Assembly (NCBI GenBank): GCA_949289935.1
Contig: CASEQD010000003.1
Location: 8,816-72,815 of the forward strand
Source of the DNA: an uncultured Pseudomonadota bacterium
GTDB taxonomy: Bacteria; Pseudomonadota; Alphaproteobacteria; RF32; CAG-239
Length of the DNA: 64,000 bases
Direction: 5' to 3'
Part shown: piece by piece, positions 192 to 47,598 of the stretch
Layout of the letters: every line of letters starts with the position of its first letter
How positions within the stretch are numbered: the first letter of the stretch is position 1
Translations under genes and position numbers: made by a program
Notes under the pieces: generated by a model
Seen by the model: only the letters and a program-made list of their open reading frames with translations
What the model was told of the DNA's origin: nothing
Database searches by the model: none

Positions 192-267
<76 letters not shown>

Positions 268-2960: not shown

Positions 2961-4115
2961 ATGTCAGTCCTTTTAAGAATGAGTTTATCAATGAAATTTC
3001 TCAGATATTTGTTTTTACTGTGTTTTTTTTCATTACCTGTTTCTGCCGGAGAAACAAGTTATTCCGTTTCCGGAAGGTCTGATTTGTTGTATGGCTATTC
3101 TGACGTATCATCACGGTATGAAAATTTTGATAAGAATAATAATTATGTCGGCAAATTTCAGCTGAACACAGCGGTTTTACATGAATTTAATGATGATTAC
3201 AGCGGCGGATTATATTTTAACCTGGCGGGAGGCAGCGGCATAGAGATTCAAAACTATACAAACGGCAACTGGGGAAAACAGATTTTCGGCGTTTTAAATA
3301 CACCGTTCGGACAAATTACCGGCGGTGAAACAGTTAATGCTGCCGCTCAACTCCAACAAGGAATTACGGCTCACGGCCCTTTAGGCATAAACAACTCGGG
3401 AATCGTCGATTTTATCAGCAATCCAAACTGGTATCGACGCACCCATAAATACAGCAGTTTTAAAACACTTAATTCGACATCAATGAACACAGACGGGCTG
3501 GCACCGAAAATTTCTTACTATACGCCGCAAATTGCCGGAATCATTGCCGGCTTTTCGTATGTTCCGGATACATACAGCCGTACCGGGCTGGTCAGCAATT
3601 ATGCCGATTATTCCCGTAAAGACGCTTATGTTGCCGCTTTGTATCAAGAAATTGATTTTGGCTTTGCTTCTGCCGCTGCTTCTATGGGATATGGCGTTTA
3701 TCATAAAACCGATAAGGATTTTACGGCCGGACTGACTCTTTACCACGGGAACTGGTCGTTTGGCGCCTCCTATCGAAAAACATATGTTGACGGAAACGAC
3801 AACCGGATTATGTCCGACAGCAAAAATCCCCGTACGCCGGACTGGTTTGACGCTTATCGCGAGGGACAAGCCTGGAGTGCGGGAATCGGTTATGCTTTCG
3901 GCCCGTATAAAGTCAGCCTTTCTTATTTTGAAGCAAAAGCGGATAATCTTCCCAACAAAGATGAAATCTTTTTGCTTTCCAACGATTTTCAAATTAATAA
4001 ACATTTTAATGTTTATGCCATTGCGGCACATACTAATTTCAGAGGAGAGAATCGGGATATCAGAAACAACAACCGCGGATATGCTTTTATTACGGGACTG
4101 GGAATCAATTTTTAG
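2961..4115 (+). CDS. Outer-membrane beta-barrel protein (porin-like); probable start at 2991 (MKFLRYL...)
   Basis: Signal peptide ending VSAGE; alternating aromatic/Gly-rich beta-strand pattern; C-terminal GLGINF with terminal Phe typical of outer-membrane beta-barrels. Confidence 0.55.
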   Translation: MSVLLRMSLSMKFLRYLFLLCFFSLPVSAGETSYSVSGRSDLLYGYSDVSSRYENFDKNNNYVGKFQLNTAVLHEFNDDYSGGLYFNLAGGSGIEIQNYTNGNWGKQIFGVLNTPFGQITGGETVNAAAQLQQGITAHGPLGINNSGIVDFISNPNWYRRTHKYSSFKTLNSTSMNTDGLAPKISYYTPQIAGIIAGFSYVPDTYSRTGLVSNYADYSRKDAYVAALYQEIDFGFASAAASMGYGVYHKTDKDFTAGLTLYHGNWSFGASYRKTYVDGNDNRIMSDSKNPRTPDWFDAYREGQAWSAGIGYAFGPYKVSLSYFEAKADNLPNKDEIFLLSNDFQINKHFNVYAIAAHTNFRGENRDIRNNNRGYAFITGLGINF

Positions 4116-4118
4116 AGG

Positions 4119-4739
4119 TTGAAAATGCCAAATATTTTATTGCTGACAGATGATGATTTTTTTGCCGAAGATTTATGTGAGCAAATTAAGTTGTACGCAC
4201 CGGAATTTGAGATTTTTCGGGAAGAACTTCCTCTGAAGACATATCATATTATTATCTTTGACGAGAAAACAGATAAGATTAAAACTTTTGCCGCCAAGGC
4301 TCCGGTCTTTTTTTTAACCAAGGATGAGAATCTTAATCCGGCCGGCGCCAGTCATGTCTTCATCAAACCTTTTAAACTTTTTAATTTTTTAGATATGCTG
4401 CGTGCGGGAATCAATCGTTTTGAAAACAGCTGCGACGGTTATTTATCGTTTAACCGTTATCAGCTCCGGCCGACAAAAAAAGAAATCGTTAATTTAAAAA
4501 ACGGAGAGCATATCAAGCTTACGGAAAAAGAAGTTGCAATGATTAAATATTTATATAATTCAAAAGGAAGAATTGTCGGTAAAAATGAGCTTTTACAGGA
4601 AGTTTGGGGATACAACCCCGATGTAACAACCCATACCATCGAAACCCATATTTATCGCTTGAGGCAAAAAGTTGAACACGACAACCCGGATGCTCAAATG
4701 ATTATGACCGAAGAGGGCGGATATTTATTGAAGTTTTAG
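4119..4739 (+). CDS. OmpR-type winged-helix transcriptional regulator with degenerate receiver-like N-terminus
   Basis: C-terminal trans_reg_C-like segment (LTEKEVAMIKYL...VWGY...THTIETHIYRLRQKV). The N-terminal region has an acidic DDD cluster and an FDE motif but is not a canonical receiver. Confidence 0.55.
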   Translation: MKMPNILLLTDDDFFAEDLCEQIKLYAPEFEIFREELPLKTYHIIIFDEKTDKIKTFAAKAPVFFLTKDENLNPAGASHVFIKPFKLFNFLDMLRAGINRFENSCDGYLSFNRYQLRPTKKEIVNLKNGEHIKLTEKEVAMIKYLYNSKGRIVGKNELLQEVWGYNPDVTTHTIETHIYRLRQKVEHDNPDAQMIMTEEGGYLLKF

Positions 4740-4760
4740 ATTTTAAGCCCTCTTCAGCTA

Positions 4761-5573
4761 TTAAAAAGCAAAATCCGCCAAAACTGGAACATGATCGGAA
4801 GGACGTTCCCATGCCCGGGCTTTTGTTAATATTTTGTAAGATTTGACATTGTTTCTTAACGGCTGTGTAACCCAAATATGGTCAAGACGGCGGCCTTTGT
4901 TGTTTATTTGCCAATTGGGATTGCGATAACTCCACCAAGTGTAAATTTTTTCCGGTTCAGGATGAAACTCGCGGGAAATGTCTATAAAATCCAACGATTT
5001 TTTCAAACGATTCAAACGTTCAACTTCTTCCGGCGTGTGAGAGACGATTTTAAGAAGTTGTTTGTGATTCCAAACATCGTTTTCATAAGGGGCAACATTA
5101 AAATCTCCGCAGATTATCATTTTTTTGCCACAATATTCATTTTTGTGTTGTTCCCAAAATTCAGCAATATCATCCATAAAAGTCAGCTTGTGGGCAAAGG
5201 AAAGATTAACAACCGGATCAGGAACATCCCCGCCAGCCGGTATATAAATATTATGCAGTTCAATATCTTCAAAAATATTAACTTTGATATGGCGGGCGTC
5301 ATTTTTTCCAACCCAGTTTAATTCTTCAATGCCGTTTAAGGTATATTTTGACAAGACAGCCACACCATTGTAACCGGCTTGACTGTATAGAGCAATGTGA
5401 GGATAACCCAGCGCGCGGATTTCATCAAAGGGAAAATCTTCCCGCCTGGCTTTAACTTCCTGAAGGCACAAAACATCGGGATTTTCTTCAGAAATAAATT
5501 TTTTTAACAGTTCAAGCCTGATGCGAACGGAATTGACATTCCATGTTGCTAAACGAAAGTCTTTGTCTTTCAT
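4761..5573 (-). CDS. xthA: Exodeoxyribonuclease III
   Basis: LATWNVNS...LCLQE N-terminus, and the C-terminal SDHVPV motif of the ExoIII/APE1 family. Confidence 0.9.
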   Translation of the reverse strand: MKDKDFRLATWNVNSVRIRLELLKKFISEENPDVLCLQEVKARREDFPFDEIRALGYPHIALYSQAGYNGVAVLSKYTLNGIEELNWVGKNDARHIKVNIFEDIELHNIYIPAGGDVPDPVVNLSFAHKLTFMDDIAEFWEQHKNEYCGKKMIICGDFNVAPYENDVWNHKQLLKIVSHTPEEVERLNRLKKSLDFIDISREFHPEPEKIYTWWSYRNPNWQINNKGRRLDHIWVTQPLRNNVKSYKILTKARAWERPSDHVPVLADFAF

Positions 5574-5577
5574 AATT

Positions 5578-6249
5578 CTATCTCATTTTATTAAAATCAA
5601 GCGGATTTTTTTGTTTTTTAAATTTAAATAAAGAGGCCGGCAATTCCGCATCTTTTTCGGAATTATACAAAGACACGACAACTTCAATTCCCTGAGAATC
5701 GACTATTTTCCATTGTTTCAGCTCGAACGGCCGGTTGCCGAAAACCAGTGTTATCGGTCCGATATCCTGATTTTTTTGATACTCTATAACAGCTTCTGTC
5801 GTGCCGGCATCTTTATAAAAATCAACAATTTTGAAATTTTTGCCATCAATTTTTACATCGTTTGACAGAATGAGACTGGCAGGAATATCGTCATAATCAA
5901 AATGAGTTACCTGATCAAGATCTTTGTCATTATAAACAATATCCCTGCCATCGCCGACTATCAGCACGTTTACCGGCGAATCATATTCCATACGGATTTT
6001 GTTCGGCTTTTCTATATAGAGTTTTCCTTCGGCGGTATTTCCGTTGCCGGCTGTCTGGACAAACGATGCTTTCAGGGTTTTTATTCCGTTCAGATATGTT
6101 TCTATTTTCCGGCTGTCTTCGGTTGTTTGAGCCAAGGATGGAAAAGAAGCGCAAAAGCAGAATATCCCTAAAAAGAAAACGGTTATTTTTTTCATGACAA
6201 ATCCCTTATTTTGTTTGTTGTCCGATCTTAGTATAGATATTTTCTCCAC
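5578..6249 (-). CDS. lolA: Outer-membrane lipoprotein carrier protein LolA-like; probable start 6195 (MKKITVFF...)
   Basis: About 205 aa periplasmic protein with signal peptide FPSLAQT and LolA-family size and beta-rich composition. Confidence 0.6.
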   Translation of the reverse strand: MEKISILRSDNKQNKGFVMKKITVFFLGIFCFCASFPSLAQTTEDSRKIETYLNGIKTLKASFVQTAGNGNTAEGKLYIEKPNKIRMEYDSPVNVLIVGDGRDIVYNDKDLDQVTHFDYDDIPASLILSNDVKIDGKNFKIVDFYKDAGTTEAVIEYQKNQDIGPITLVFGNRPFELKQWKIVDSQGIEVVVSLYNSEKDAELPASLFKFKKQKNPLDFNKMR

Positions 6250-6274
6250 AAAAGCAAAATAAAAAACCGATGTT

Positions 6275-6289
6275 TTTAAATACAGTGTT
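6275..6289 (+). repeat. Motif copy TTTAAATACAGTGTT (1 nt after the methyltransferase stop, upstream of lolA)
   Basis: Exact 15-mer; a variant copy TTTAAATACACCGTT follows at 6309-6323. Confidence 0.9.
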
Positions 6290-6290
6290 T

Positions 6291-7241
6291 TTAATCATAA
6301 TTTCTGGTTTTAAATACACCGTTTTCATACCCTTGTATCTCACGTTTTTTTTCAGCCAACTCCAAGCGTTTTTCAGCCAAAGCCACATATTCTTTTTCAC
6401 GTTCGATGCCGATGTAGCAACGTCCGAGTTTTTTGGCGACAACCGAAGTTGTACCTGATCCCAAGAAAGGATCAAGAACAACATCGCCGGGATTGCTGGA
6501 AGCCAAAATAAGCTTGGCCATTAGTTTTTCGGGCTTTTGCGTAGGATGAGGCGTGTTTTCGGGCATGGACCAGAAAGGAATGGATATATCCGTCCAAATA
6601 TTTGACGGATGAGTCAGCCGGCAGCATTTTTCTCCTTCACGACGCCAGTCTTTCGGCGCGCCACTGTCATCACGGTAAGGAGCAACCACCGGGCGAAGCA
6701 TTTTAACGCTGTCCAGATTAAACGTGTATTTTTTTGATTTCGTAAAAAACCATATGTCTTCAAGACAATTTTTCCAATTGTCCCTGGCTCCGCGCCCCTT
6801 TTCCCTTTCCCATGATATCCGGTTGCGTAAGATGAAATATTTTCCGGCAACTTCAGGAATGGAAATGGAGGTTTTCCAATCGGCGCAAATATAAAGACTG
6901 GCATTTTCCTTCATAAGACGGGGGAGTTTTTTGAGCCATCTGTTCAACCATTTTTTATATTCAGAAAAATCCCGCTCTTTAAATACACTGTTTCCAAAGT
7001 TTTTGGTCAGGTTATACGGCGGATCGGCAATAATCAAATCAGCACAGGCATCCGGCAGGCAATCCAAAGCTTTGAACACATCCTGGAGGATGGTTTTATT
7101 CAAAACATAATCCAACGACGCCTTAAAATTTAGCTTAAGCGCGCGGCGGGCATAAGCATTTGTTTCTTTCGGCGTTAATTCCAAGGTTTTATTGCGGGGT
7201 GCTTTTTCCGAAGTCATGAGAAAAAATTCAGTCTTCGCCAA
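6291..7241 (-). CDS. Beta-class N6-adenine (or N4-cytosine) DNA methyltransferase, CcrM/HinfI-like orphan
   Basis: Motif IV DPPYN (LIIADPPYNL) precedes the C-terminal motif I FLGSGTT, which is the beta-class order. No adjacent endonuclease. Shorter than canonical CcrM. Confidence 0.75.
   Translation of the reverse strand: MAKTEFFLMTSEKAPRNKTLELTPKETNAYARRALKLNFKASLDYVLNKTILQDVFKALDCLPDACADLIIADPPYNLTKNFGNSVFKERDFSEYKKWLNRWLKKLPRLMKENASLYICADWKTSISIPEVAGKYFILRNRISWEREKGRGARDNWKNCLEDIWFFTKSKKYTFNLDSVKMLRPVVAPYRDDSGAPKDWRREGEKCCRLTHPSNIWTDISIPFWSMPENTPHPTQKPEKLMAKLILASSNPGDVVLDPFLGSGTTSVVAKKLGRCYIGIEREKEYVALAEKRLELAEKKREIQGYENGVFKTRNYD
6978..6992 (+). repeat. Motif copy variant TTTAAATACACTGTT inside the methyltransferase CDS
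   Basis: 14/15 match; encodes NSVFKE in the protein. Confidence 0.8.
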
Positions 7242-22837: not shown

Positions 22838-22932
22838 GATGGAGGGCAGTGGGTTAATTATTCGCCAATCCGGTCAGGTTCGGAAGAAAGCAGCCGTAAC
22901 GAACCAATTAAGGTCAGTGTCCCTCCGCCTTA
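22838..22932 (+). ncRNA. ffs: Signal recognition particle RNA (4.5S, ffs)
   Basis: Conserved domain IV sequence CCGGUCAGGUUCGGAAGAAAGCAGCC, closed by the GGAGGGCAGUG...CAGUGUCCCUCC helix. Sits in the classical position immediately upstream of dnaX. Confidence 0.75.
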
Positions 22933-38016: not shown

Positions 38017-38667
38017 TTATCTCCTTTTTTCAGACAAGTTCGTTATAACAATTATCATTCCTTCATCGCTGGAAAGACTTCTAACCAGACGATAATCAAA
38101 ATTCCAGAATTTTTCTGCTTCGGAAATTTCTTCGGCATATTTTTTTCCTTTGGGAAAAATACATTTTGTTTCCGGCCGGCAAAAACGAAAAGAATATTTT
38201 AGCAGCTCATTTAACCGGCACAACGCCCGGGATGTTATGACGTCGGCTTTTTCGGTTTTGACGTTTTCAATTCGATCATTAATAATTTTAATATTATTTA
38301 GCCCGCATTTTTCAGAAACAAAGTTTAAATACAGCGTTTTCTTTTTTATGCTTTCTATCAGATTAATTTTTAAATACGGTGTTTTTTCTTGCAACACAAC
38401 AGCCAGAACCATCCCTGGAAAACCGGCTCCAGAACCAAAATCATACATAACTTTCGCATCTTTTGGAACAAGCGGTAGAAGCTGTAAAGAATCCAAAAAA
38501 TGACGATTCCATGCATCCGGCAAAGAAGCTTTACTAACTAAGTTAAATTTTTTCTGCCACTCATTTAAGCTTGCTTCATAAAGCTTCAGTTTAGAAAGTG
38601 TTTCACGTGAAACATTGTATTTTTCAATTAAATTTTCCATAAAAATATTTATATAAACTTTCAACAA
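38017..38667 (-). CDS. rsmG: 16S rRNA m7G527 methyltransferase RsmG (GidB); probable start 38637
   Basis: SAM motif DFGSGAGFPG. Confidence 0.92.
   Translation of the reverse strand: MLKVYINIFMENLIEKYNVSRETLSKLKLYEASLNEWQKKFNLVSKASLPDAWNRHFLDSLQLLPLVPKDAKVMYDFGSGAGFPGMVLAVVLQEKTPYLKINLIESIKKKTLYLNFVSEKCGLNNIKIINDRIENVKTEKADVITSRALCRLNELLKYSFRFCRPETKCIFPKGKKYAEEISEAEKFWNFDYRLVRSLSSDEGMIIVITNLSEKRR
38369..38383 (+). repeat. Motif copy variant TTTAAATACGGTGTT inside rsmG
   Basis: 14/15 match. Confidence 0.8.
38599..38614. promoter_or_regulatory. parS centromere site (perfect palindrome TGTTTCACGTGAAACA) inside rsmG
   Basis: Exact match to the universal ParB binding consensus. Confidence 0.85.
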
Positions 38668-38768
38668 AGTTTAAAACACATTTAATCAAGTTATAAACAC
38701 AAAAAGGAAAGCATATTTAAAATAATTTTAAATTCAACAACTTAAACGATGTTTACTTATTTATAACT

Positions 38769-39590
38769 TTAAAACTTTAGTCGATTTACATAGTTAATTT
38801 CTGAAAGAAAAACCTCGGCTTTATCAAAATTTTCTCCCAATTGAGCAACAGAATGCGCATCATCGCTGATAACGACAGGAACCTTGCGTTTGTTTAGCTC
38901 TTCAACAATCCAATTCTCTGGAAAAAAATGATTTGTTTTCCGAAGCCCTTTTGTGCTTAATTCGAATCCTGTGCGACTTTCGGCCAAAGCTTCTATTACA
39001 GACCATTTGGCAGCATCCCATTCTGATGTCTGGCAAAAACCTTTTGATGTTATCTGATCTATATGCGCCATAAAAGAAAACCATCCGTTCTTAATGGCGG
39101 CAACAAGATTTTTCCAATGATTTTCAAGGCCTTTTTTGATAATTTCATCATCTAACAAGTCCGGACGTCGTTTCAAATAGGAAATTTTTAATATCTTACT
39201 AAAATTATTATTGTAAATAAAGTGGCTGGCTCCGATATAATAATCAACATCCAAAGATTTTCGCATTCTATCAAAAAAATCCAGCCATTCTTTGTTATCA
39301 AAATAATCGACCTCGAATCCGACATAAACTTTTATTTTATGCCTTAGAGCCGTTTTGCGAATTTCATCAATGACTTGTTTATAAATTTGTTCGGCCTGAG
39401 CATAATTACGAAAATACATTGACTGCATTTTATCTATTTCGCAAATTCCCGGATTACAAATTAAATGATTGGAAATTCCGATTTCTTGAAAGCCCAGTTC
39501 TTCAGCACGGGAAATCATTTCATCGGCAGTATTTATTCCGTCAAAAATTCCCAAACTATTGGTATGCGTATGGTAAGAAAAAAGCTGCAT
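38769..39590 (-). CDS. PHP-family phosphoesterase (HisJ-type histidinol-phosphatase-like)
   Basis: N-terminal HTHT motif (SYHTHTN), further His/Asp metal ligands, 273 aa. Confidence 0.7.
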   Translation of the reverse strand: MQLFSYHTHTNSLGIFDGINTADEMISRAEELGFQEIGISNHLICNPGICEIDKMQSMYFRNYAQAEQIYKQVIDEIRKTALRHKIKVYVGFEVDYFDNKEWLDFFDRMRKSLDVDYYIGASHFIYNNNFSKILKISYLKRRPDLLDDEIIKKGLENHWKNLVAAIKNGWFSFMAHIDQITSKGFCQTSEWDAAKWSVIEALAESRTGFELSTKGLRKTNHFFPENWIVEELNKRKVPVVISDDAHSVAQLGENFDKAEVFLSEINYVNRLKF

Positions 39591-39614
39591 ATTTCCTCCT
39601 TGCGGAGAAAAATA

Positions 39615-40235
39615 TCATTTAATCGCTAAAAAATTATAAATATCATTTTGACATTTCTCATCAAAGAAAGATTTAATTTCGTATAAATCTTTCTTTATAT
39701 TATTTAACTGTTTCAAAGGGATTTGATACTCTGCAGAGACGGACTGAATCCGACTGTCAATTGAACAAATTTTTCCCGCGTTGTTCATCATATTGCACAA
39801 AGAGATGAGCTTGTCATAATCATCAAAAGAAAAATTTTCCATTATTTTACGGCATTCAGGAATGAAATCCTGCAAATGAGGATAATCTTCGTCACGGAAA
39901 TTTTCCGTATAAAAACTATGAGTCAGGCAAACTTTGGCAACCTCATCATATCCTAAAGACATCATATAATGATAGCCAACCACTCCGTGAAAAATATGTT
40001 CTTTCTTTTCATCAAGGATATATCCACAATCATGCAGCAGTCCCAAGACATAAGCTTTTTCATGATTTAAATATTTTGTTTTTTTAGCAAATATTTCGGC
40101 AACCATACCGACATCCCGGCTATGAGCCCGAAAAGCTATTTCAGCTTTTTCAGAAAAAGGATATTGTGTGGCATTTCTTACATCTATTATTTTATTCAAA
40201 ATGTTTTCGGCTTCTTTTTTGCTTGGACAGCTCAT
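39615..40235 (-). CDS. HD-domain phosphohydrolase (paralogue 1)
   Basis: H...HD (GLLHDCGY)...H..H...D signature; about 40% identical to the neighbouring paralogue. Confidence 0.7.
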   Translation of the reverse strand: MSCPSKKEAENILNKIIDVRNATQYPFSEKAEIAFRAHSRDVGMVAEIFAKKTKYLNHEKAYVLGLLHDCGYILDEKKEHIFHGVVGYHYMMSLGYDEVAKVCLTHSFYTENFRDEDYPHLQDFIPECRKIMENFSFDDYDKLISLCNMMNNAGKICSIDSRIQSVSAEYQIPLKQLNNIKKDLYEIKSFFDEKCQNDIYNFLAIK

Positions 40236-40244
40236 TTGTTTCCC

Positions 40245-40259
40245 TTTAAATACAGTGTT
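40245..40259 (+). repeat. Motif copy TTTAAATACAGTGTT at the HD2/HD1 junction (supplies the HD2 stop codon)
   Basis: Exact match. Confidence 0.9.
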
Positions 40260-40884
40260 AAAATTCGTCTTTTATCTCTAACAACTTGTAAATATCACAA
40301 CCGCATTTCTCATCAAAATATTTTTTGTTTTTTACAGCATTGTCATAAAAATTTTTTGTATCTGTTTCTTTTAAATTGTAGCGAAAGGAGATGCCTTTTA
40401 TTCGTTTTTTTATACAGACTTTTTCCAAACCTTCAAAAAACAAATCACATAATTGGACTAGACGGTCGTAATCGTTAAAGATTAAAGAACTCATTTTTTC
40501 TTTTGCCCAAAGAAGCCATTCTTTTTTATAAGACGGATAGTCATTATCTTTGAAATCCGGAGCATAAAAGCTATGAGTCAGGCAAACTCTGGCAACATCA
40601 TCATACCCCATAGCCATCATAATTTCATAACCTTCCCGCCCGTGAAAACGTCCCGTAATTTTTTCGGAAATTCGTTTTCCATAATCGTGAAGTAATCCGA
40701 GAGCATAAGCTTTTTCAACATTCAGCTCAGAGCAATTTTCGGCAATAATGCGACAGCAGCGCCCTACTCCCCGGGAATGAAAAATATATTCATCTTTCTC
40801 AGGAAAAGGATAATGTGTTTCTCTGTATAAAACACCTTCTTTCCATATTTTTTCAGCATTTCTGATACTCGGATATTTTTTCAT
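40258..40884 (-). CDS. HD-domain phosphohydrolase (paralogue 2)
   Basis: GLLHDYGK and the same layout as 39615-40235, including the shared CLTHSFY and FDEKC..DIY motifs. Confidence 0.7.
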   Translation of the reverse strand: MKKYPSIRNAEKIWKEGVLYRETHYPFPEKDEYIFHSRGVGRCCRIIAENCSELNVEKAYALGLLHDYGKRISEKITGRFHGREGYEIMMAMGYDDVARVCLTHSFYAPDFKDNDYPSYKKEWLLWAKEKMSSLIFNDYDRLVQLCDLFFEGLEKVCIKKRIKGISFRYNLKETDTKNFYDNAVKNKKYFDEKCGCDIYKLLEIKDEF

Positions 40885-40885
40885 G

Positions 40886-40900
40886 TTTAAATACAGTGTT
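40886..40900 (+). repeat. Motif copy TTTAAATACAGTGTT forming the whole mnmG/HD2 intergenic spacer
   Basis: Exact match; 1 nt from the HD2 start codon, and it overlaps the mnmG stop. Confidence 0.9.
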
Positions 40901-42753
40901 TATTTTTTTATATATCCCAGAATTGCCGTAACGGCGGCAGGGGTTACCCCCGGAATGCGGGAAGCTTCTCCAATGGTTGCCGGTTTGACTTTGGTTAACT
41001 TTTGTACCATTTCACGGGATAAACCTCCTATTTTTTTATAATCAATATCTTCTCTTATTTTTAAGTTTTCATCTTTTTTGAAAACTTCAATATCTGCTTT
41101 CTGGCGTTTAATATATCCGGCATAGCGGGCTTCTATTTCTATTTGTTCATAAATTTCATCTGGAACAGAAAATAAATCAGGCCAAAGATCATTGATTGTT
41201 TCACGTGAAACATTATCATAAGACATTATATTATATGCAGTCCGTTTGGTACCGTCCTGCTTGACTTTTATTCCTCTTTTTTCAAGTTCAGACGGTTTGG
41301 TTATCAGTTTTTCACAAAGAGTGCGACATTGGTTTAATTTTTCCTGTTTTGCTTTAAATACAGTGTATCGTTTTTCAGAAACACATCCTGTCTGCCAACC
41401 TTTTTCAGTCAGACGCAAATCAGCATTGTCAGCTCTGAGTAATAAACGATATTCAGAACGAGAAGTAAACATTCTGTATGGTTCATCAACGCCTTTGGTG
41501 ATAAGATCGTCAATCATAACACCTATATATCCTTCGCTACGGTCAACAGTAAATTCCCGCCCTTCTTTTCTTGCCATTAAAGCCGCATTAATTCCGGTAA
41601 CAATTCCCTGAGCGGCAGCTTCTTCATAGCCGGTTGTTCCGTTAATTTGTCCTGCTAAAAAAAGTCCCGGGACTTTTTTACATTCCAACCTGTGATTTAA
41701 TTCCTGCGGATCAACATAATCATATTCTATGGCATAGGCATAGCGCAGAATTTTGACATTTTTCAAACCATCCATGGTGTGAATAAAATCTTCCTGCACA
41801 TCAGCCGGAAGAGATGTTGATATTCCGTTTGGATAAACAACTTTGGAATTATAGCCTTCAGGTTCAAGAAAAATCTGATGACTGTTACGATCCGGAAATT
41901 TTACCAGTTTATCTTCAATACTTGGGCAATAACGCGGGCCAACCCCTTTTATCAATCCGGAAAACAACGCACATTTTTCAAAATTATCCCGAATAATCTG
42001 ATGTGTCTTTTCATTAGTATGAGTAATTGCGCATTGTATTTGTGGTTGAAGAATATCTTTTGTTAAAAAAGAAAAAGGAACAGGTTTTTCGTCTCCGTTT
42101 TGTTTGGGTAGTGATTCCCAATCTATGGAATCAAAATCCAACCGGGCAGGGGTTCCTGTTTTTAATCTTCCTGTTTTTAGTCCAAAAGCGTTTAAATACG
42201 GTGTTATTCCCATACAAGAAACATCATTTACCCGTCCTCCAACCGTTGTCTGATGACCGGTGAACATTATTCCGTTTAAAAAAGTTCCTGATGTGAGAAT
42301 GACCGTTTCTGATTTTATTTCGGTTCCGTCTGCCAGAATAACACCACATATTTTTTCTTTATCAGACAATAAACCTTCGACAGATGCTTCAATAAGTGTT
42401 AAATTTTTTTGTTTTTGCAAAGCTTCAAGCATATATTTTTTATACAAATCTCTGTCTGCCTGCGCACGCGGTCCACGAACCGCCGGCCCTTTTGATGCAT
42501 TCAGCATGCGAAACTGTATGCCTGCTTTATCAATAACCTGAGCCATTAATCCGTCAAGAGCATCTATTTCCCTGACAAGATGTCCTTTTCCCAAACCACC
42601 GACGGCCGGATTGCAGGACATTTCTCCTATTGAGGAAATTTTATGCGTAATCAAAGCCGTTTTTGCACCTATACGAGCTGACGCGGCACAAGCTTCACAT
42701 CCGGCATGTCCTCCGCCAACAACTATTACATCAAATTTCTGATTATTGTTCAT
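40900..42753 (-). CDS. mnmG: tRNA uridine 5-carboxymethylaminomethyl modification enzyme MnmG (GidA)
   Basis: FAD-binding [13 protein letters not shown]; 617 aa. Confidence 0.97.
41197..41212. promoter_or_regulatory. parS site (TGTTTCACGTGAAACA) inside mnmG
   Basis: Exact palindromic consensus. Confidence 0.85.
41353..41367 (+). repeat. Motif copy TTTAAATACAGTGTA inside mnmG
   Basis: 14/15 match. Confidence 0.8.
42191..42205 (+). repeat. Motif copy variant TTTAAATACGGTGTT inside mnmG
   Basis: 14/15 match. Confidence 0.8.
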
Positions 42754-42868
42754 TTATTCAAATGTCCAAAAATAAATATTGTTTTAAGGGTTTACAACAG
42801 GTTATATAATTTAGCAAGAGATTAATTTGTTAAAAAAAGCTTTTTTTAAACAAATTACGGACATAAAG

Positions 42869-42883
42869 TTTAAATACAGTGTT
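42869..42883 (+). repeat. Motif copy GTTTAAATACAGTGTTATTTT at the mnmE 3' end (supplies the mnmE stop codon)
   Basis: Exact match with extended flanks. Confidence 0.9.
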
Positions 42884-44225
42884 ATTTTCCAATACAAAAA
42901 CTACCGAATATCTTATCAAGAATTTCATCTATCTCTATTTGTCCGGTAATTTTTCCTATTTCCCGCGCAGCTAAACGAATATCTTCAGCCGACAACTCTA
43001 TTTCTTTATTCAGATTAAACAAACTAAGCGATTGTAAAGCTTCTCTTAAAGCTTCACGGTAGCGTGTGCGGGTTATGAGAAGACTTGAGTTTGAGGTAAA
43101 TTTATCATTGATAACCGAACTTATTTTATTAAGAATAATATCAATTCCTTTCTGTTGTTTAACAGAGATCAGAGGAATTCCCTGCTTTTGAATTTCGGAA
43201 CACTGTTCTTTTGTTAAAGCATCACATTTGTTGGCAAAAAAGAACATTTTGTTTTTAAATGATTTTTCAATATTTTCAAAGACCTGAACAGTGTCTTGAG
43301 ATGCATCAAACAAACAAAGAAGAAAATCAGCATCTTTTATTTTTTGATAAGCAATTTCAACGCCCTGGCGTTCAATAGCTTCTTCAGTTTCTCTGATGCC
43401 TGCCGTATCCGTGATAATTACGGGATAACCGTTTAAGTCTAAATGAATATCAACAGCATCGCGGGTTGTACCGGCAACATCGGAAACAATGACGACGTCT
43501 CTTTTAGCTATGGTATTCAGCAAACTCGATTTTCCAGCATTCGGACGTCCAACGATGACAACACGAAAACCTTCCCGCAAGCGTTCACCTATATTATCTT
43601 CTTCCAAATGCCCTTTTATTTCTTCCCGCAGTTTAAATACAGTGTTATTTATATTAGAAACAATATCTTCGGGAATTTCTTCATCGGGAAAATCAATATA
43701 GGCCTCAAGGTATGCCATAATATTAAGTAGCCGGGCTCGCCAGTCTTCATATAAATTTTTCAGGCTGCCTTCCATTTGCCGCAAAGCATATTGCTGCTGC
43801 GCTTTTGTTTCGGCATCTATTAAATCAGCGAGGCCTTCAGCCTCGGTTAAATCCATTTTTTGATTATAAAAAGCCCGTTTTGAATATTCACCGGGTTCAG
43901 CCAGACGAAATCCGGGGATGAGGCTGAGATTTTCAAGAACTGTTGCAATAACAGCCCGGGAACCGTGTGTCTGTAATTCAACAATATCTTCTCCGGTAAA
44001 AGAATTTGGCGCTCTAAAGTAAAGCAACAAACATTTATCAAGAGTTTGTCCGGTTTTTATATCTTTCAGATTAGTAAAATAGGCATAACGCGGTTTAATA
44101 TCAGCAAGGCTTATGTTTGTCATTAATCTGACTACCTGCAAAGCTTCGCTGCCTGAAATGCGAATAACGGCAACACCCGATTTTCCCAATACGGTAGATA
44201 AAGCATAAATTGTTTTATTGTCCAT
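42882..44225 (-). CDS. mnmE: tRNA modification GTPase MnmE (TrmE)
   Basis: G1 GRPNAGKSSL, G3 DTAG, C-terminal CIGK. Confidence 0.97.
   Translation of the reverse strand: MDNKTIYALSTVLGKSGVAVIRISGSEALQVVRLMTNISLADIKPRYAYFTNLKDIKTGQTLDKCLLLYFRAPNSFTGEDIVELQTHGSRAVIATVLENLSLIPGFRLAEPGEYSKRAFYNQKMDLTEAEGLADLIDAETKAQQQYALRQMEGSLKNLYEDWRARLLNIMAYLEAYIDFPDEEIPEDIVSNINNTVFKLREEIKGHLEEDNIGERLREGFRVVIVGRPNAGKSSLLNTIAKRDVVIVSDVAGTTRDAVDIHLDLNGYPVIITDTAGIRETEEAIERQGVEIAYQKIKDADFLLCLFDASQDTVQVFENIEKSFKNKMFFFANKCDALTKEQCSEIQKQGIPLISVKQQKGIDIILNKISSVINDKFTSNSSLLITRTRYREALREALQSLSLFNLNKEIELSAEDIRLAAREIGKITGQIEIDEILDKIFGSFCIGK
43631..43645 (+). repeat. Motif copy GTTTAAATACAGTGTTATTTA inside mnmE
   Basis: Exact match with extended flanks; encodes NNTVFKL. 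Confidence 0.9.
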
Positions 44226-44420: not shown

Positions 44421-45098
44421 ATGAAAAACAAACTACAATTAATTATTTGGGATTTTGACGGCGTTATTGCCGATTCCGAAAAAATATGGCTGGAAAACCG
44501 TAGAGTTTTTTTTAAAGAGCGTTTAGGCGTTGATTGGAATTTTGAAACAATCAACAAATATTTCGGCGGAACAAGCGATAAAACAAAAAAACAAATTTTA
44601 AGCCGTCTGGGATATGAAACCGATGAACAATTCTGGAAAGATGTTTTGGACAGAGATGTTGCTTTTATGAAAAAACACGGAATTGAAAAAATGCCCGGCG
44701 TTGAAAAGATATTGGTAGACAAAAGATTTAAGCATTGTGTGGCAACCGGTGGAACAAAAGCAAAAACAAAGTTGAAAACAGACATTATCGGTTTGGAAAA
44801 GTTCATTCCCGAACATCATGTTTTTACGGTCGACAATGTTGAAAAAGGAAAACCAGAGCCTGATTTGTTTTTATTTGCAGCGGAAAAAATGGGAGAAAAA
44901 CCGGAAAACTGTCTGGTTATCGAAGATTCAATAGCCGGAATGACCGCGGCGCAAAGGGCGGGAATGAAAGTTGTTGCCTTTTTGGGAAGCAGTATTTATC
45001 AAAATGAAGACTATTTACAAAAAGTCAAAAAATTAGGAATTAAAGATATCTTTTATAATATGAAAGATTTATATGAGTTTATAAAAATTAATGTTTGA
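44421..45098 (+). CDS. HAD-superfamily hydrolase (beta-phosphoglucomutase/phosphatase-like)
   Basis: Motif I DFDGVIADSE, with a later K and a DD-containing motif. Confidence 0.75.
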   Translation: MKNKLQLIIWDFDGVIADSEKIWLENRRVFFKERLGVDWNFETINKYFGGTSDKTKKQILSRLGYETDEQFWKDVLDRDVAFMKKHGIEKMPGVEKILVDKRFKHCVATGGTKAKTKLKTDIIGLEKFIPEHHVFTVDNVEKGKPEPDLFLFAAEKMGEKPENCLVIEDSIAGMTAAQRAGMKVVAFLGSSIYQNEDYLQKVKKLGIKDIFYNMKDLYEFIKINV

Positions 45099-47100: not shown

Positions 47101-47598
47101 TATAAACCTTAAATGTCTGAGTGGAAATTTAAGCAGGAAATTGCTTAAGATTGATTTGTTTATATGATTTAAATGTTCAAGAGTCAAATGTTTGTTTTGA
47201 AAAAAGGTTATGCACAGTCTGCCTGCCCAAACATATTTATTTAAATTTATGTGGTTATTTGTATATACCTGTGAGTTGTGTGGATAAGTTTTTCAGAGGA
47301 TTTTTTATAAGTTTGTTAATAATGTGTTAACGAATCTGACATGACGAAAAAACTAAAAGTTAATAGAATCTTAATATTTTTACCGAGTCAGTTTTTGTAA
47401 AGCAATTTTATGTTGCAACAGGTAAAATTTTTATTTCAGGAGCAAAACGAATCCAGACGGGCGCTGTGGGTAAATATGTAGAATAAATTTTACATTATGA
47501 GGATTAATTTGTATAAATAAGAAAAAGAGCTGAGTTATGCACAGACAAGTTCAAAATTGTGTATAACAAAACAACATATTGTTTTTTTAGGACTTTTT

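What the first reader, a model, noticed from the sequence alone, without database searches (positions are those of the whole stretch)
38369..43645. Oriented 15-20 nt motif GTTTAAATACAGTGTTATTT: ten same-strand copies, three inside conserved coding sequence, and at three gene junctions it supplies the stop codon
Copy positions, all as TTTAAATAC[A/G]GTGTT on the + strand:
- 6275, 6309 and 6978;
- 38369 in rsmG;
- 40245 and 40886;
- 41353 and 42191, both in mnmG;
- 42869;
- 43631 in mnmE.

Expectation and strand bias:
- A random 15-mer is expected about 0 times in 64 kb.
- All copies are in one orientation and all lie in or beside minus-strand genes, so they read AACACTGTATTTAAA in the mRNA sense.

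Junction copies:
- At the mnmE, mnmG and HD2 gene ends, the motif's terminal TTA is the TAA stop codon (mRNA TAA-CAC-TGT-ATT-TAA, giving tandem in-frame stops).
- The mnmG/HD2 spacer is exactly the motif.
- Another copy sits 1 nt after the methyltransferase stop.

Coding copies:
- Copies inside three of the most conserved bacterial genes (rsmG, mnmG, mnmE), where they occupy different reading frames (TVFK, TPYLN, TPYLK), argue for selection at the nucleic-acid level.

Possible roles:
- an uptake-signal or other architecture-imparting sequence;
- a protein or RNA binding site;
- an operon-internal processing or termination/reinitiation signal;
- footprints of recombination that delivered the HD-HD-PHP insertion.
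Basis: seen in the sequence. Interest (0 to 1): 0.85.

Follow-up and report, generated by a model that had tools for sequence, protein, structure and literature searches.

The report
Conserved one-way DNA motif beside parS
A 15-base, one-directional DNA word (AAC-RNY-GTATTTAAA) is kept at the same spots within and between the mnmE-mnmG-rsmG genes next to the replication origin, and in polA, across dozens of uncultured gut Alphaproteobacteria; it is kept as strictly as the neighbouring parS sites, so it is very likely the docking site of an unidentified factor, not chance or a DNA-uptake signal.

Summary
The window holds 12 copies of TTTAAATAC-RNY-GTT, all on the + strand (0.2 expected by chance). 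Eight lie in mnmE-mnmG-HD-HD-PHP-rsmG. Four lie around a DNA methyltransferase and a porin gene.

The motif is conserved at orthologous positions in 34 species-level genomes of gut and rumen Alphaproteobacteria, including at synonymous sites, as strongly as the two intragenic parS sites. Distant MnmE orthologues (≤52% identity) carry unrelated peptides at the slot, so protein constraint is excluded.

It is not genome-wide: 1 hit in about 361 kb of lineage DNA outside the clusters. That rules out an uptake signal. polA carries a second conserved slot.

One species with identical locus architecture and intact parS has lost every copy, which points to one dispensable system with a trans-acting factor.

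Neighbouring copies sit at multiples of 10.5 bp. The variable triplet is symmetric (R-N-Y).

Best reading (about 0.5): a head-to-tail array of sites for an unknown double-stranded-DNA-binding protein in the origin-proximal and centromere region. Main rival (about 0.3): an mRNA or co-transcriptional element, because almost every copy is on the sense strand.

The stop-codon overlap is a by-product: in one reading frame the motif contains TAA.

I found no known family, Rfam model or paper that matches.

The parts
43632..43646 (-). Motif copy inside mnmE (codons 194-198, N T V F K). This is the most conserved slot.
   Evidence: occupied in 29/29 species; all 120 unbiased MnmE homologues carry N/D-x-VFKL
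42869..42883 (-). Motif copy overlapping the mnmE stop codon (TAA at 42882-42884), with an in-frame second TAA.
   Evidence: the same arrangement (offset -1) occurs in 17 junction copies of relatives
42191..42205 (-). Motif copy inside mnmG (I T P Y L N, codons 183-188).
   Evidence: occupied in 28/28 species; third-position information 1.96 against a gene mean of 0.69
41353..41367 (-). Motif copy inside mnmG (Y T V F K, codons 463-467). The first base is the variant T (TAC...).
   Evidence: occupied in 22/28 species
40886..40900 (-). Motif copy that fills the mnmG-stop/HD2-start spacer (stop at 40900-40902, ATG at 40882-40884).
   Evidence: a copy at the mnmG stop recurs in relatives
40245..40259 (-). 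Motif copy overlapping the HD2 stop (40258-40260), 9 nt upstream of the HD1 start codon.
38369..38383 (-). Motif copy inside rsmG (T P Y L K, codons 96-100).
   Evidence: occupied in 14/15 species
38324..38338 (-). Motif copy inside rsmG (T L Y L N, codons 111-115), 45 nt from the previous copy.
   Evidence: occupied in 15/15 species
6978..6992 (-). Species-specific copy inside the N6 DNA methyltransferase gene (N S V F K). Relatives have KSTFK or QSVFK here.
   Evidence: absent from 80 homologous loci
6309..6323 (-). Copy inside the methyltransferase gene (N G V F K). The peptide is conserved in the family, so this copy may owe its existence partly to protein constraint plus codon choice.
6275..6289 (-). 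Perfect copy 1 nt after the methyltransferase stop and 25 nt before the lolA start codon. Species-specific.
3293..3307 (-). Copy inside the porin gene but antisense to it. It has the same absolute orientation as all other copies and shares the 17-mer AACGGTGTATTTAAAAC with copy 6309.
   Evidence: also present in sister contig L200
41197..41212 (.). Context: perfect parS (TGTTTCACGTGAAACA) inside mnmG, interleaved with the motif copies.
   Evidence: conserved in 28/28 species
38599..38614 (.). Context: perfect parS inside rsmG.
   Evidence: conserved in 15/15 species
47188..47556 (.). Context: putative oriC in the rho/coaE spacer. It holds 4 perfect DnaA boxes, 2 TTAA-N7-TTAA boxes and several GANTC sites. 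The motif array starts about 3.5 kb to its left and points away from it.
   Evidence: the same spacer holds 4 CtrA-type boxes in L289 and DnaA boxes in L302

Best explanation
Claim: the motif is the recognition site of an unidentified sequence-specific protein that binds double-stranded DNA.

Anatomy:
- Seven to ten sites are embedded head-to-tail in the first 3-11 kb to the left of oriC, through the mnmE-mnmG-(HD/PHP)-rsmG-parA-parB operon.
- They are interleaved with the two intragenic parS sites.
- One or two further sites lie in polA, about 40 kb from the origin on the same arm.

Proposed mechanism:
- Where sites are adjacent they lie on the same face of the helix, so the protein probably binds cooperatively and builds a directional nucleoprotein array.
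- The most likely role is to organise or mark the origin-proximal/centromere region, acting in segregation, replication control or replication-coupled control of this operon and polA. Known parallels are parS, the RefZ binding motifs and the DnaA-box clusters next to mnmE (thdF) in Bacillus.

Shown:
- nucleotide-level conservation;
- restriction to a few loci;
- a single orientation;
- 10.5-bp phasing;
- coordinated loss of all copies in one species.

Inferred:
- that the target is double-stranded DNA rather than RNA;
- the identity of the protein;
- the cellular role.
For: Sharp definition:
- Twelve positions are invariant and two are restricted to R or Y in 201 instances, even though any 2 mismatches were allowed.

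Conservation equal to parS:
- The top third-codon-position windows in mnmE, mnmG and rsmG are parS and the motif slots.
- Slot occupancy is 22/28 to 29/29.
- Loci fetched by protein rather than by motif, L286 and L289, each carry 7 copies. All lie in mnmE..parB, all in one orientation, with none in the flanks.

Not protein constraint:
- polA slot 1 keeps N-x-V-F-K in 107 of 120 homologues, inside a linker full of insertions and deletions.

Locus restriction:
- 1 hit in about 361 kb of lineage DNA outside the clusters, against 7 in 6.3 kb and 11 in 17.9 kb inside them.

One system with a trans factor:
- The L302 species keeps the locus architecture, both perfect parS sites and the oriC boxes, but has no copy with 1 mismatch or fewer. 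Only decayed remnants are left.
- The L303 species keeps only 3 copies.

Double-stranded DNA rather than RNA:
- Neighbouring copies are spaced 21-23, 30-33, 42, 63 and 73-74 bp apart. Ten of 12 clade-level spacings lie within 1.5 bp of a multiple of 10.5. The signal peaks at 10.5 (binomial 5e-4, Rayleigh 0.002).
- The degenerate triplet is symmetric, giving AC-R-N-Y-GT followed by A and the palindrome TTTAAA.
- The one copy that separates gene strand from chromosome orientation (3293, antisense to the porin gene) keeps the chromosomal orientation.
- RNA around the mnmE junction copy shows no stable structure (z = -0.16), and no Rfam family matches.

All known loci are on the origin-proximal left arm:
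- On contig SRR16554650_578, polA is 40 kb from oriC, on the same strand as mnmE.
Against: - Every conserved copy lies in transcribed DNA on the sense strand. About 20 independent slots do so, which is what an RNA or non-template-strand element predicts.
- Only one species-specific copy (3293) argues the other way, and its chance probability is about 0.03.
- Junction copies hug stop codons (offsets -1 or -2 in 24 of about 35). Three sit directly before intrinsic-terminator hairpins (L133, L139, L199), so they lie inside the transcript.
- The phasing test was conceived after seeing the data and rests on 12 events.
- No candidate binding protein was found. Every local gene is retained in the motif-less species.
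- A strictly one-way arrangement over kilobases is unusual for a simple DNA-binding protein and is itself unexplained.
- GC skew hints that polA may be head-on to replication in CAG:260-like genomes while its motif stays on the sense strand. The hint is weak.
Confidence: 0.5

Rival explanations
1. The motif works in the transcript, or on the non-template strand during transcription. It would be a 15-nt cis-element, AAC-RNY-GUAUUUAAA, in the mnmE-parB operon mRNA, the polA mRNA and, in this species, the methyltransferase mRNA. A sequence-specific RNA-binding protein, a nuclease or an elongation factor (ops/RfaH-like) would read it. The effect would be on processing, stability, termination/antitermination or intercistronic expression.
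For: - About 20 independent slots are all on the sense strand. With 1 mismatch or fewer, none of 38 loci has an opposite-strand copy.
- Copies are concentrated at cistron junctions and overlap stop codons.
- Some lie directly upstream of terminator hairpins.
- All copies lie inside transcription units.
- Coordinated loss in L302 fits a lost trans factor equally well.
Against: - The 10.5-bp phasing of adjacent copies has no meaning for RNA.
- Neither does the symmetric R-N-Y degeneracy.
- The porin copy is antisense to its gene.
- There is no conserved structure and no Rfam match.
- Zero variation in the 9-mer, including no G-U-compatible changes, argues against small-RNA pairing.
- ops-type elements act once, in a leader, not 8-10 times inside coding sequence (general knowledge).
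Confidence: 0.3
2. The copies are recombination (att-like) sites, or their footprints, marking the boundaries of gene cassettes (HD, PHP, HAD-like, aroA) inserted into the operon. This would resemble integron attC sites or the mnmE 3'-end attB used by SGI1-type islands.
For: - Gene content between mnmE and mnmG, and between mnmG and rsmG, varies between species. Inserted genes are usually followed by a copy.
- The 3' end of mnmE is a known integration hotspot (general knowledge; not tested here).
Against: - The best-conserved copies are internal to mnmE, mnmG, rsmG and polA, far from any cassette boundary.
- Several cassette junctions lack a copy, for example PHP/rsmG and HD1/PHP in the window and aroA/PHP in L289.
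- No integrase or recombinase gene lies nearby.
- The motif has no attC-like inverted-repeat structure.
- The motif-less L302 species keeps its HD and PHP cassettes.
Confidence: 0.05
3. The sites are diverged DnaA boxes (TTAAATACA against TTATNCACA). They would form an origin-proximal titration or regulatory cluster like datA or the Bacillus thdF-jag DnaA-box cluster.
For: - The 9-mer overlaps a DnaA box at 7 of 9 positions.
- DnaA-box clusters next to mnmE/gidA and regulation of gidAB-parAB by DnaA are documented (PMC3245932, read; PMC13438810, abstract seen).
- polA is DnaA-regulated in E. coli (general knowledge).
Against: - The organism's oriC uses canonical boxes: 4 perfect TTATNCACA in 47208-47566.
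- In 201 instances the two 'mismatch' positions never revert to consensus.
- Invariant bases extend beyond a 9-mer (T0, G12, T13), while box position 9 varies A/G.
Confidence: 0.05
4. The motif is a DNA-uptake, packaging (pac-like) or genome-wide polar architecture sequence, such as USS/DUS, KOPS or Chi.
For: - Copies occur in coding sequence at permissive positions.
- They occur in genome-maintenance genes (polA, a DNA methyltransferase).
- There is a single orientation on one replichore.
Against: - Density outside the clusters is about 1 per 360 kb.
- There is no inverted set on the right arm: 16.5 kb of the window plus the flanks of L286, L289, L302 and L303.
- Fifteen specified bases is far longer than KOPS or Chi.
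Confidence: 0.03
5. Protein-level constraint plus AT-rich codon usage produces the same codons by chance (N-x-V-F-K, T-x-Y-L-N).
For: The methyltransferase copy 6309 encodes NGVFK, which is conserved in the family. One relative (L215) also spells the motif at that point.
Against: - Two reading frames and non-coding copies all share the same 15-mer.
- Synonymous sites are frozen.
- The peptides are absent from MnmE at 52% identity or less.
- All slots decay together in L302.
Confidence: 0.01

Closest known systems
parS / ParB centromere sites
   Same: - Both are short, sequence-specific sites embedded in origin-proximal housekeeping genes; here they share the very same genes, mnmG and rsmG.
- Both are conserved at synonymous positions across species to the same degree.
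   Different: - parS is a 16-bp perfect palindrome with 2 copies here.
- The motif is asymmetric, strictly one-way, and present in 7-10 copies.
- It also occurs in polA.
- It can be lost while parS and parAB stay intact.
RefZ binding motifs (RBMs) of Bacillus
   Same: Both are lineage-specific DNA motifs around oriC whose chromosomal positions are conserved across a whole genus or order. That conservation implies a role in chromosome organisation (bioRxiv 10.1101/459685, read).
   Different: - RBMs are nearly palindromic.
- There are five single sites spread over both arms, bound by a known TetR-family protein.
- Here there is a dense one-arm array of direct repeats, and the binder is unknown.
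Origin-proximal DnaA-box clusters (the Bacillus thdF-jag cluster, E. coli datA)
   Same: Both are clusters of short asymmetric sites close to oriC and next to mnmE (thdF), thought to tune replication initiation (PMC3245932).
   Different: - The sequence is not a DnaA box.
- The sites are mostly inside coding sequence, not intergenic.
Iterons and ParR-parC-type direct-repeat arrays
   Same: Both are head-to-tail repeats with spacings of about 21-22 bp or other whole helical turns, which suggests cooperative binding on one face.
   Different: - Those arrays are compact intergenic tandem repeats beside their rep or par gene.
- Here most copies are 450-850 bp apart inside genes, and no cognate gene lies nearby.
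USS/DUS uptake sequences
   Same: Both are oligomers of at least 10 nt tolerated inside genes at variable protein positions in more than one reading frame. Both occur in genome-maintenance genes.
   Different: - USS/DUS occur about once per kb genome-wide, in both orientations.
- This motif is confined to a handful of loci and has one orientation.
ops / RfaH (operon polarity suppressor)
   Same: Both are short sequence elements read in one orientation relative to transcription of long operons.
   Different: - The sequences are unrelated.
- ops is a single leader element, not a multi-copy intragenic one.
- No NusG paralogue was seen in the window.

Membership tests
DNA uptake sequences (USS/DUS) | Hundreds to thousands of copies spread over the whole genome (about 1 per kb) | tested here: not met
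   0 copies in 53.3 kb of the window outside the two clusters. 1 in 207 kb of close relatives. 0 in 80 kb around polA.
DNA uptake sequences (USS/DUS) | No strand or orientation preference | tested here: not met
   All copies have one orientation in 38 loci.
parS (ParB binding site) | 16-bp palindrome close to TGTTNCACGTGAAACA | tested here: not met
   The motif is asymmetric and unrelated in sequence. True parS sites are present separately at 38599 and 41197.
KOPS/Chi-type polar architecture sequences | Genome-wide distribution, with orientation switching at oriC | tested here: not met
   No copies of either orientation to the right of oriC (window 47.6-64 kb; flanks of L286, L289, L302 and L303). 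None between the clusters.
DnaA box | Match to TTATNCACA | tested here: not met
   The best overlap, TTAAATACA, has 2 mismatches that are invariant in 201 copies. Canonical boxes cluster in the rho/coaE spacer.
CtrA box | TTAA-N7-TTAA | tested here: not met
   The motif reads TTAA-N7-GTTW, and its 'spacer' is invariant. Perfect CtrA-type boxes occur at 47316 and 47360.
Integron attC / cassette recombination site | Imperfect inverted repeats of 57-141 bp at the 3' end of each cassette, with an integrase nearby | tested here: not met
   The element is 15 nt with no inverted-repeat partner. No integrase gene is in the window. Conserved copies lie inside core genes.
Iterons | Compact tandem array next to a rep initiator gene at an origin | tested here: not met
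   Only some intergenic pairs are 21-33 bp apart; most copies are hundreds of bp apart. No rep gene is present.
Programmed -1 frameshift slippery site (U UUA AAC) | The heptamer must sit in the X XXY YYZ frame in every functional copy | tested here: not met
   Only the T-x-Y-L-N copies are in that frame. The N-x-V-F-K copies and the non-coding copies are not.
Any Rfam RNA family | Covariance-model match | tested here: not met
   No hit at any motif copy, at gathering score or at E of 1 or less.
Positionally conserved chromosomal protein-binding sites (parS, RBM, matS class) | Sequence-specific sites kept at orthologous chromosomal positions across species by nucleotide-level selection | tested here: met
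Positionally conserved chromosomal protein-binding sites (parS, RBM, matS class) | Bound by a dedicated DNA-binding protein | not testable with these tools
   No candidate was identified. Coordinated loss in L302 implies a trans factor.

The most novel reading that the evidence does not exclude
The motif defines a previously unknown directional cis-element system of a whole order of uncultured gut Alphaproteobacteria. An oriented, phased site array is laid through the centromere-proximal operon and polA and is read in a direction-dependent way. Alternatively it could be a new co-transcriptional factor that recognises the non-template strand repeatedly along long operons. In either case its dedicated trans factor is still to be found.
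Probability: 0.3. Interest if true: 0.8.

Novelty: new variant of a known kind. Interest (0 to 1): 0.62.

Why it matters
If this reading is right, it is a second, independent layer of cis-acting information written into the same origin-proximal genes that carry parS. It is conserved across a large, uncultured, human-associated bacterial lineage.

The case offers three things:
- a clean natural experiment: species with 10, 3 or 0 copies and otherwise identical loci, which can be used to find the cognate factor by phylogenetic profiling;
- a test case for how regulatory DNA words are accommodated inside essential coding sequences in two reading frames and at stop codons;
- a possible new player in chromosome segregation, replication control or operon expression in Alphaproteobacteria.

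It also gives a practical marker for the origin region in metagenome-assembled genomes of this lineage.

Tried and rejected
- **Viral contigs.** This showed that a longer pattern was needed for the genome scan.
- **Literature.** A search for the motif strings found nothing relevant. OpaA/GapR was checked as a possible origin/parS binder, but it is a non-specific nucleoid protein.
- **Apparent flipped copy.** A copy in the HAD gene of L126 turned out to be a 2-mismatch chance match that breaks the invariant 9-mer.
- **Local candidate binders.** I considered the atypical OmpR-like regulator at 4119-4739, the 236-aa ORF at 45095, the HD and PHP proteins, and YbaB. None has evidence linking it to the motif, and the HD, PHP, HAD and 45095-like genes persist in the motif-less species.
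- **RHH-like ORF.** A conserved 66-aa ORF upstream of polA is noted, but no link to the motif was shown.
- **Promoter and terminator scans.** They found nothing at the motif above shuffle expectation.
- **Sequence comparisons from memory.** sigma-54 promoters, extended -10 promoters, the T7/SP6 promoter, dif/XerD, IHF, LexA, NrdR, and mimicry of the 16S 530 loop or a tRNA anticodon loop were all rejected, because the conserved positions do not coincide.
- **Replication versus transcription polarity.**
  - Locating polA and mnmE on one contig worked for one species, where both are co-directional and so uninformative.
  - It failed for two others.
  - GC skew gave only a weak hint.
- **Cluster membership.** The look-up gave no accessions that could link the motif-less MnmE to the motif-less PolA variants.

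Full report
**1. Observation.**
- TTTAAATACRGTGTT occurs 7 times in the window, all on the + strand, against 0.01 expected.
- With up to 2 mismatches to TTTAAATACAGTGTT there are 12 copies, again all on the + strand, against 0.21 expected.
- The copies fall into two clusters: 3293-6992 (4 copies) and 38324-43646 (8 copies). The other 53 kb hold none.
- One search gives the coding context of each copy:
  - five lie inside mnmE, mnmG and rsmG, in two reading frames (N/Y-T-V-F-K and T-P/L-Y-L-N/K);
  - three overlap the stop codons of mnmE, mnmG and HD2;
  - one lies 1 nt after the stop of a DNA methyltransferase gene;
  - two lie inside that methyltransferase gene;
  - one lies inside a porin gene, antisense to it.
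The in-frame tandem stop holds for mnmE and HD2 but not for mnmG.

**2. Source and context.**
- The window is a human-gut-type metagenome contig (ENA ERZ17292903 k87_5686543).
- The gene order is secB-tim44-mltA-...-dnaQ-coaE | rho-HAD-mnmE-mnmG-HD-HD-PHP-rsmG-parA-parB. From general knowledge this is alphaproteobacterial.
- Two perfect parS sites lie inside rsmG and mnmG.
- The rho/coaE spacer (47188-47556) holds 4 of the window's 6 perfect DnaA boxes, two TTAA-N7-TTAA boxes and several GANTC sites. It sits where Caulobacter-type origins sit by synteny (general knowledge).
- The same spacer carries such boxes in relatives.
- The GC-skew minimum is at 43.9 kb, with a local minimum at 47.0 kb.
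- The motif array therefore starts about 3.5 kb left of oriC and reads away from it.

**3. Conservation across species.**
- An exact scan of 185,579 species genomes with GTTTAAATACRGTGTTAT returned 77 stretches.
- Thirty-seven of them, from 34 gut or rumen alphaproteobacterial MAGs, are the same locus: rho-HAD-mnmE-mnmG-...-rsmG-parAB. These MAGs are labelled uncultured Alphaproteobacteria or 'Azospirillum sp.'. Their MnmE is 57-85% identical to the window's.
- Each of those stretches carries 3-10 copies in a single orientation.
- The rest are singletons in unrelated taxa, consistent with chance.
- The 201 instances define the element:
  - TTTAAATAC, G12 and T13 never vary (with one spurious exception);
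  - the triplet is R-N-Y on the sense strand;
  - only the last base and the flanks are loose.

**4. Nucleotide-level selection.**
- In codon alignments of 29 mnmE, 28 mnmG and 15 rsmG genes, the windows with the highest third-codon-position conservation are the parS sites and the motif slots. Their information content is 1.35-2.0, against gene means of 0.7-0.9.
- Slot occupancy is 29/29, 28/28, 22/28, 14/15 and 15/15, against 28/28 and 15/15 for parS.
- These loci were ascertained through an 18-mer at three slots, so I repeated the test on material chosen without reference to the motif:
  - 120 MnmE homologues (≥69% identity) all carry N/D-x-V-F-K-L inside an otherwise variable stretch, and some have a tandem duplicate 21 nt away;
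  - of 95 further homologues from another clade, all but about five carry NTVFK;
  - two loci fetched by protein, L286 and L289, each have 7 copies, all in mnmE..parB and all in one orientation.
- Among 150 representatives of MnmE clusters at 50% identity, only the query's own cluster has the peptide. Everything at 52% identity or less is unrelated at that position.
- Protein constraint therefore does not explain the motif, and the motif is specific to this lineage.

**5. Distribution.**
- The motif is not genome-wide.
- Eighty methyltransferase loci from metagenomes (693 kb) contain a single hit. About 207 kb of this comes from close relatives.
- The four copies around the methyltransferase and porin genes are therefore specific to this species and its sister strain L200.
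- One of them (6309) encodes NGVFK, a peptide conserved across that enzyme family.
- Two of the 77 stretches pointed to other loci:
  - polA in L146, with two NTVFK copies;
  - a site after an addA-like gene in L199.
- In 120 PolA homologues, slot 1 keeps N-x-V-F-K in 107. The slot lies in the hypervariable linker between the 5'-nuclease and Klenow parts, surrounded by insertions and deletions. Slot 2 is present in about a third of them.
- In four polA loci of 22 kb, only polA carries the motif.
- polA is itself origin-proximal. On contig SRR16554650_578 it lies 40 kb from oriC, on the same strand as mnmE.

**6. One system, dispensable.**
- The species represented by L302 has the same locus, gene for gene. 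Both parS sites are perfect, and DnaA and CtrA-type boxes sit in the rho/coaE spacer.
- Yet it has no copy with 1 mismatch or fewer. Only remnants survive: AACACTGTTCTTAAA in rsmG, and TPFLA in MnmG.
- L303 retains three copies.
- Simultaneous decay of all slots argues for a single trans-acting factor that this species has lost. It also shows independence from ParB-parS.
- No local gene is missing in L302, so the factor is probably encoded elsewhere.

**7. DNA or RNA?**
- Evidence for double-stranded DNA:
  - neighbouring copies are spaced 21-23, 30-33, 42, 63 and 73-74 bp apart;
  - counted once per clade, 10 of 12 spacings lie within 1.5 bp of a multiple of 10.5, and the signal peaks at 10.5 (binomial 5e-4, Rayleigh 0.002);
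  - the degenerate triplet is symmetric (AC-R-N-Y-GT) in coding and non-coding copies alike;
  - the only copy that separates gene strand from chromosomal orientation keeps the chromosomal orientation (3293);
  - the junction RNA has no stable fold and no Rfam family matches.
- Evidence for RNA or co-transcriptional action:
  - every conserved slot is on the sense strand of a transcribed gene;
  - junction copies abut stop codons, and sometimes terminators.
- An apparent flipped copy in L126 is a chance near-match.
- I could not find a motif-bearing gene that is demonstrably head-on to replication. GC skew only hints at one, in CAG:260-like genomes.
- I therefore favour a double-stranded-DNA site array (about 0.5) over an RNA or non-template-strand element (about 0.3).

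**8. Stop codons.**
- On the sense strand the motif can be read in three frames:
  - AAC RNY GTA TTT AAA, which is open;
  - A ACR NYG TAT TTA AA, which is open;
  - AA CRN YGT ATT TAA A, which contains a stop.
- Of 170 strict instances, 123 are coding and use only the two open frames. About 35 lie at gene ends, 24 of them overlapping the stop by 1-2 nt.
- The overlap with TAA is thus what any copy in the third frame must produce in a tightly packed operon. It need not be a function in itself.

**9. Comparison with known systems.**
- The element behaves like the class of positionally conserved chromosomal binding sites. That class includes parS, the RefZ RBMs (whose positions relative to oriC are conserved across Bacillus) and the origin-proximal DnaA-box clusters, one of which lies next to thdF (mnmE).
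- It fails the defining sequence or distribution tests for each of the following (see the membership table):
  - parS;
  - DnaA boxes;
  - CtrA boxes;
  - USS/DUS;
  - KOPS/Chi;
  - attC sites;
  - iterons;
  - frameshift sites.
- It differs from all of them in being asymmetric, strictly one-way, mostly intragenic and multi-copy over 9 kb.
- No paper in the searchable library contains the motif string.

**10. Verdict.**
- This is a real, strongly selected, lineage-specific cis-element with an unknown reader.
- I class it as a new variant of a known kind: chromosomal site arrays near oriC.
- There is a substantial chance (about 0.3) that its directionality reflects a mechanism not yet described.
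- Interest: 0.62.

Noticed in passing
window 38599-38614 and 41197-41212: Two perfect parS sites (TGTTTCACGTGAAACA) lie inside the coding sequences of rsmG and mnmG, each encoding V-S-R-E-T. They are conserved in 15/15 and 28/28 species.
   Followed up: yes
window 47188-47566: Putative oriC in the rho/coaE spacer: DnaA boxes at 47208, 47279-47287, 47535 and 47558-47566; TTAA-N7-TTAA boxes at 47316 and 47360; a high density of GANTC sites. The equivalent spacer in L289 has four CtrA-type boxes.
   Followed up: partly
window 38671-38685 and 38717-38731: Two further TTAA-N7-TTAA (CtrA-type) boxes lie in the 100-bp PHP/rsmG spacer just upstream of the rsmG start codon. They may mark a cell-cycle-regulated promoter for rsmG-parAB.
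   Followed up: no
window 38769-40884; loci L129, L155, L286, L289, L292, L302: Gene content between mnmG and rsmG varies between species (0-3 HD-domain genes, 1-2 PHP genes, aroA in L289). So does the content between mnmE and mnmG (a HAD-like gene, a small ORF, or a convergent Methyltransf_4 gene).
   Followed up: partly
L287 9745-9945 (also L282 9709-9909, L284 9731-9931, L290 9772-9972): A conserved 66-aa ribbon-helix-helix-like ORF lies immediately upstream of polA in every polA locus examined, with a GANTC-containing conserved upstream region. I found no link to the motif.
   Followed up: partly
window 3291-3307 and 6307-6323: The porin-gene copy and the methyltransferase copy share an identical 17-mer (sense AACGGTGTATTTAAAAC), including the rare GGT triplet. 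One may have been copied from the other, 3 kb away.
   Followed up: no
L149 (Streptococcus sp. HF-1907) 925-1190: Four copies of the same 15-mer plus the ATTTT flank occur in a short tandem repeat in an unrelated Firmicute. This appears to be a coincidence and a separate repeat family.
   Followed up: no
window 4119-4739: An OmpR-type winged-helix protein, apparently with a degenerate receiver domain, is paired with the porin gene. The pair is conserved in relatives (L282, L284, L287, L290) but is inverted relative to polA and xthA in some.
   Followed up: partly
window 192-264, 2766-2839 and 22838-22932: Two tRNA genes and the small SRP RNA are the only Rfam gathering-score hits in the window.
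   Followed up: no
window 42820-42860 (minus strand): A long AT-rich inverted repeat (TAATTTGTTTAAAAAAAGCTTTTTTTAACAAATTA) lies in the mnmE-mnmG spacer, 20 nt downstream of the junction motif. Its fold is not more stable than shuffled sequence.
   Followed up: partly
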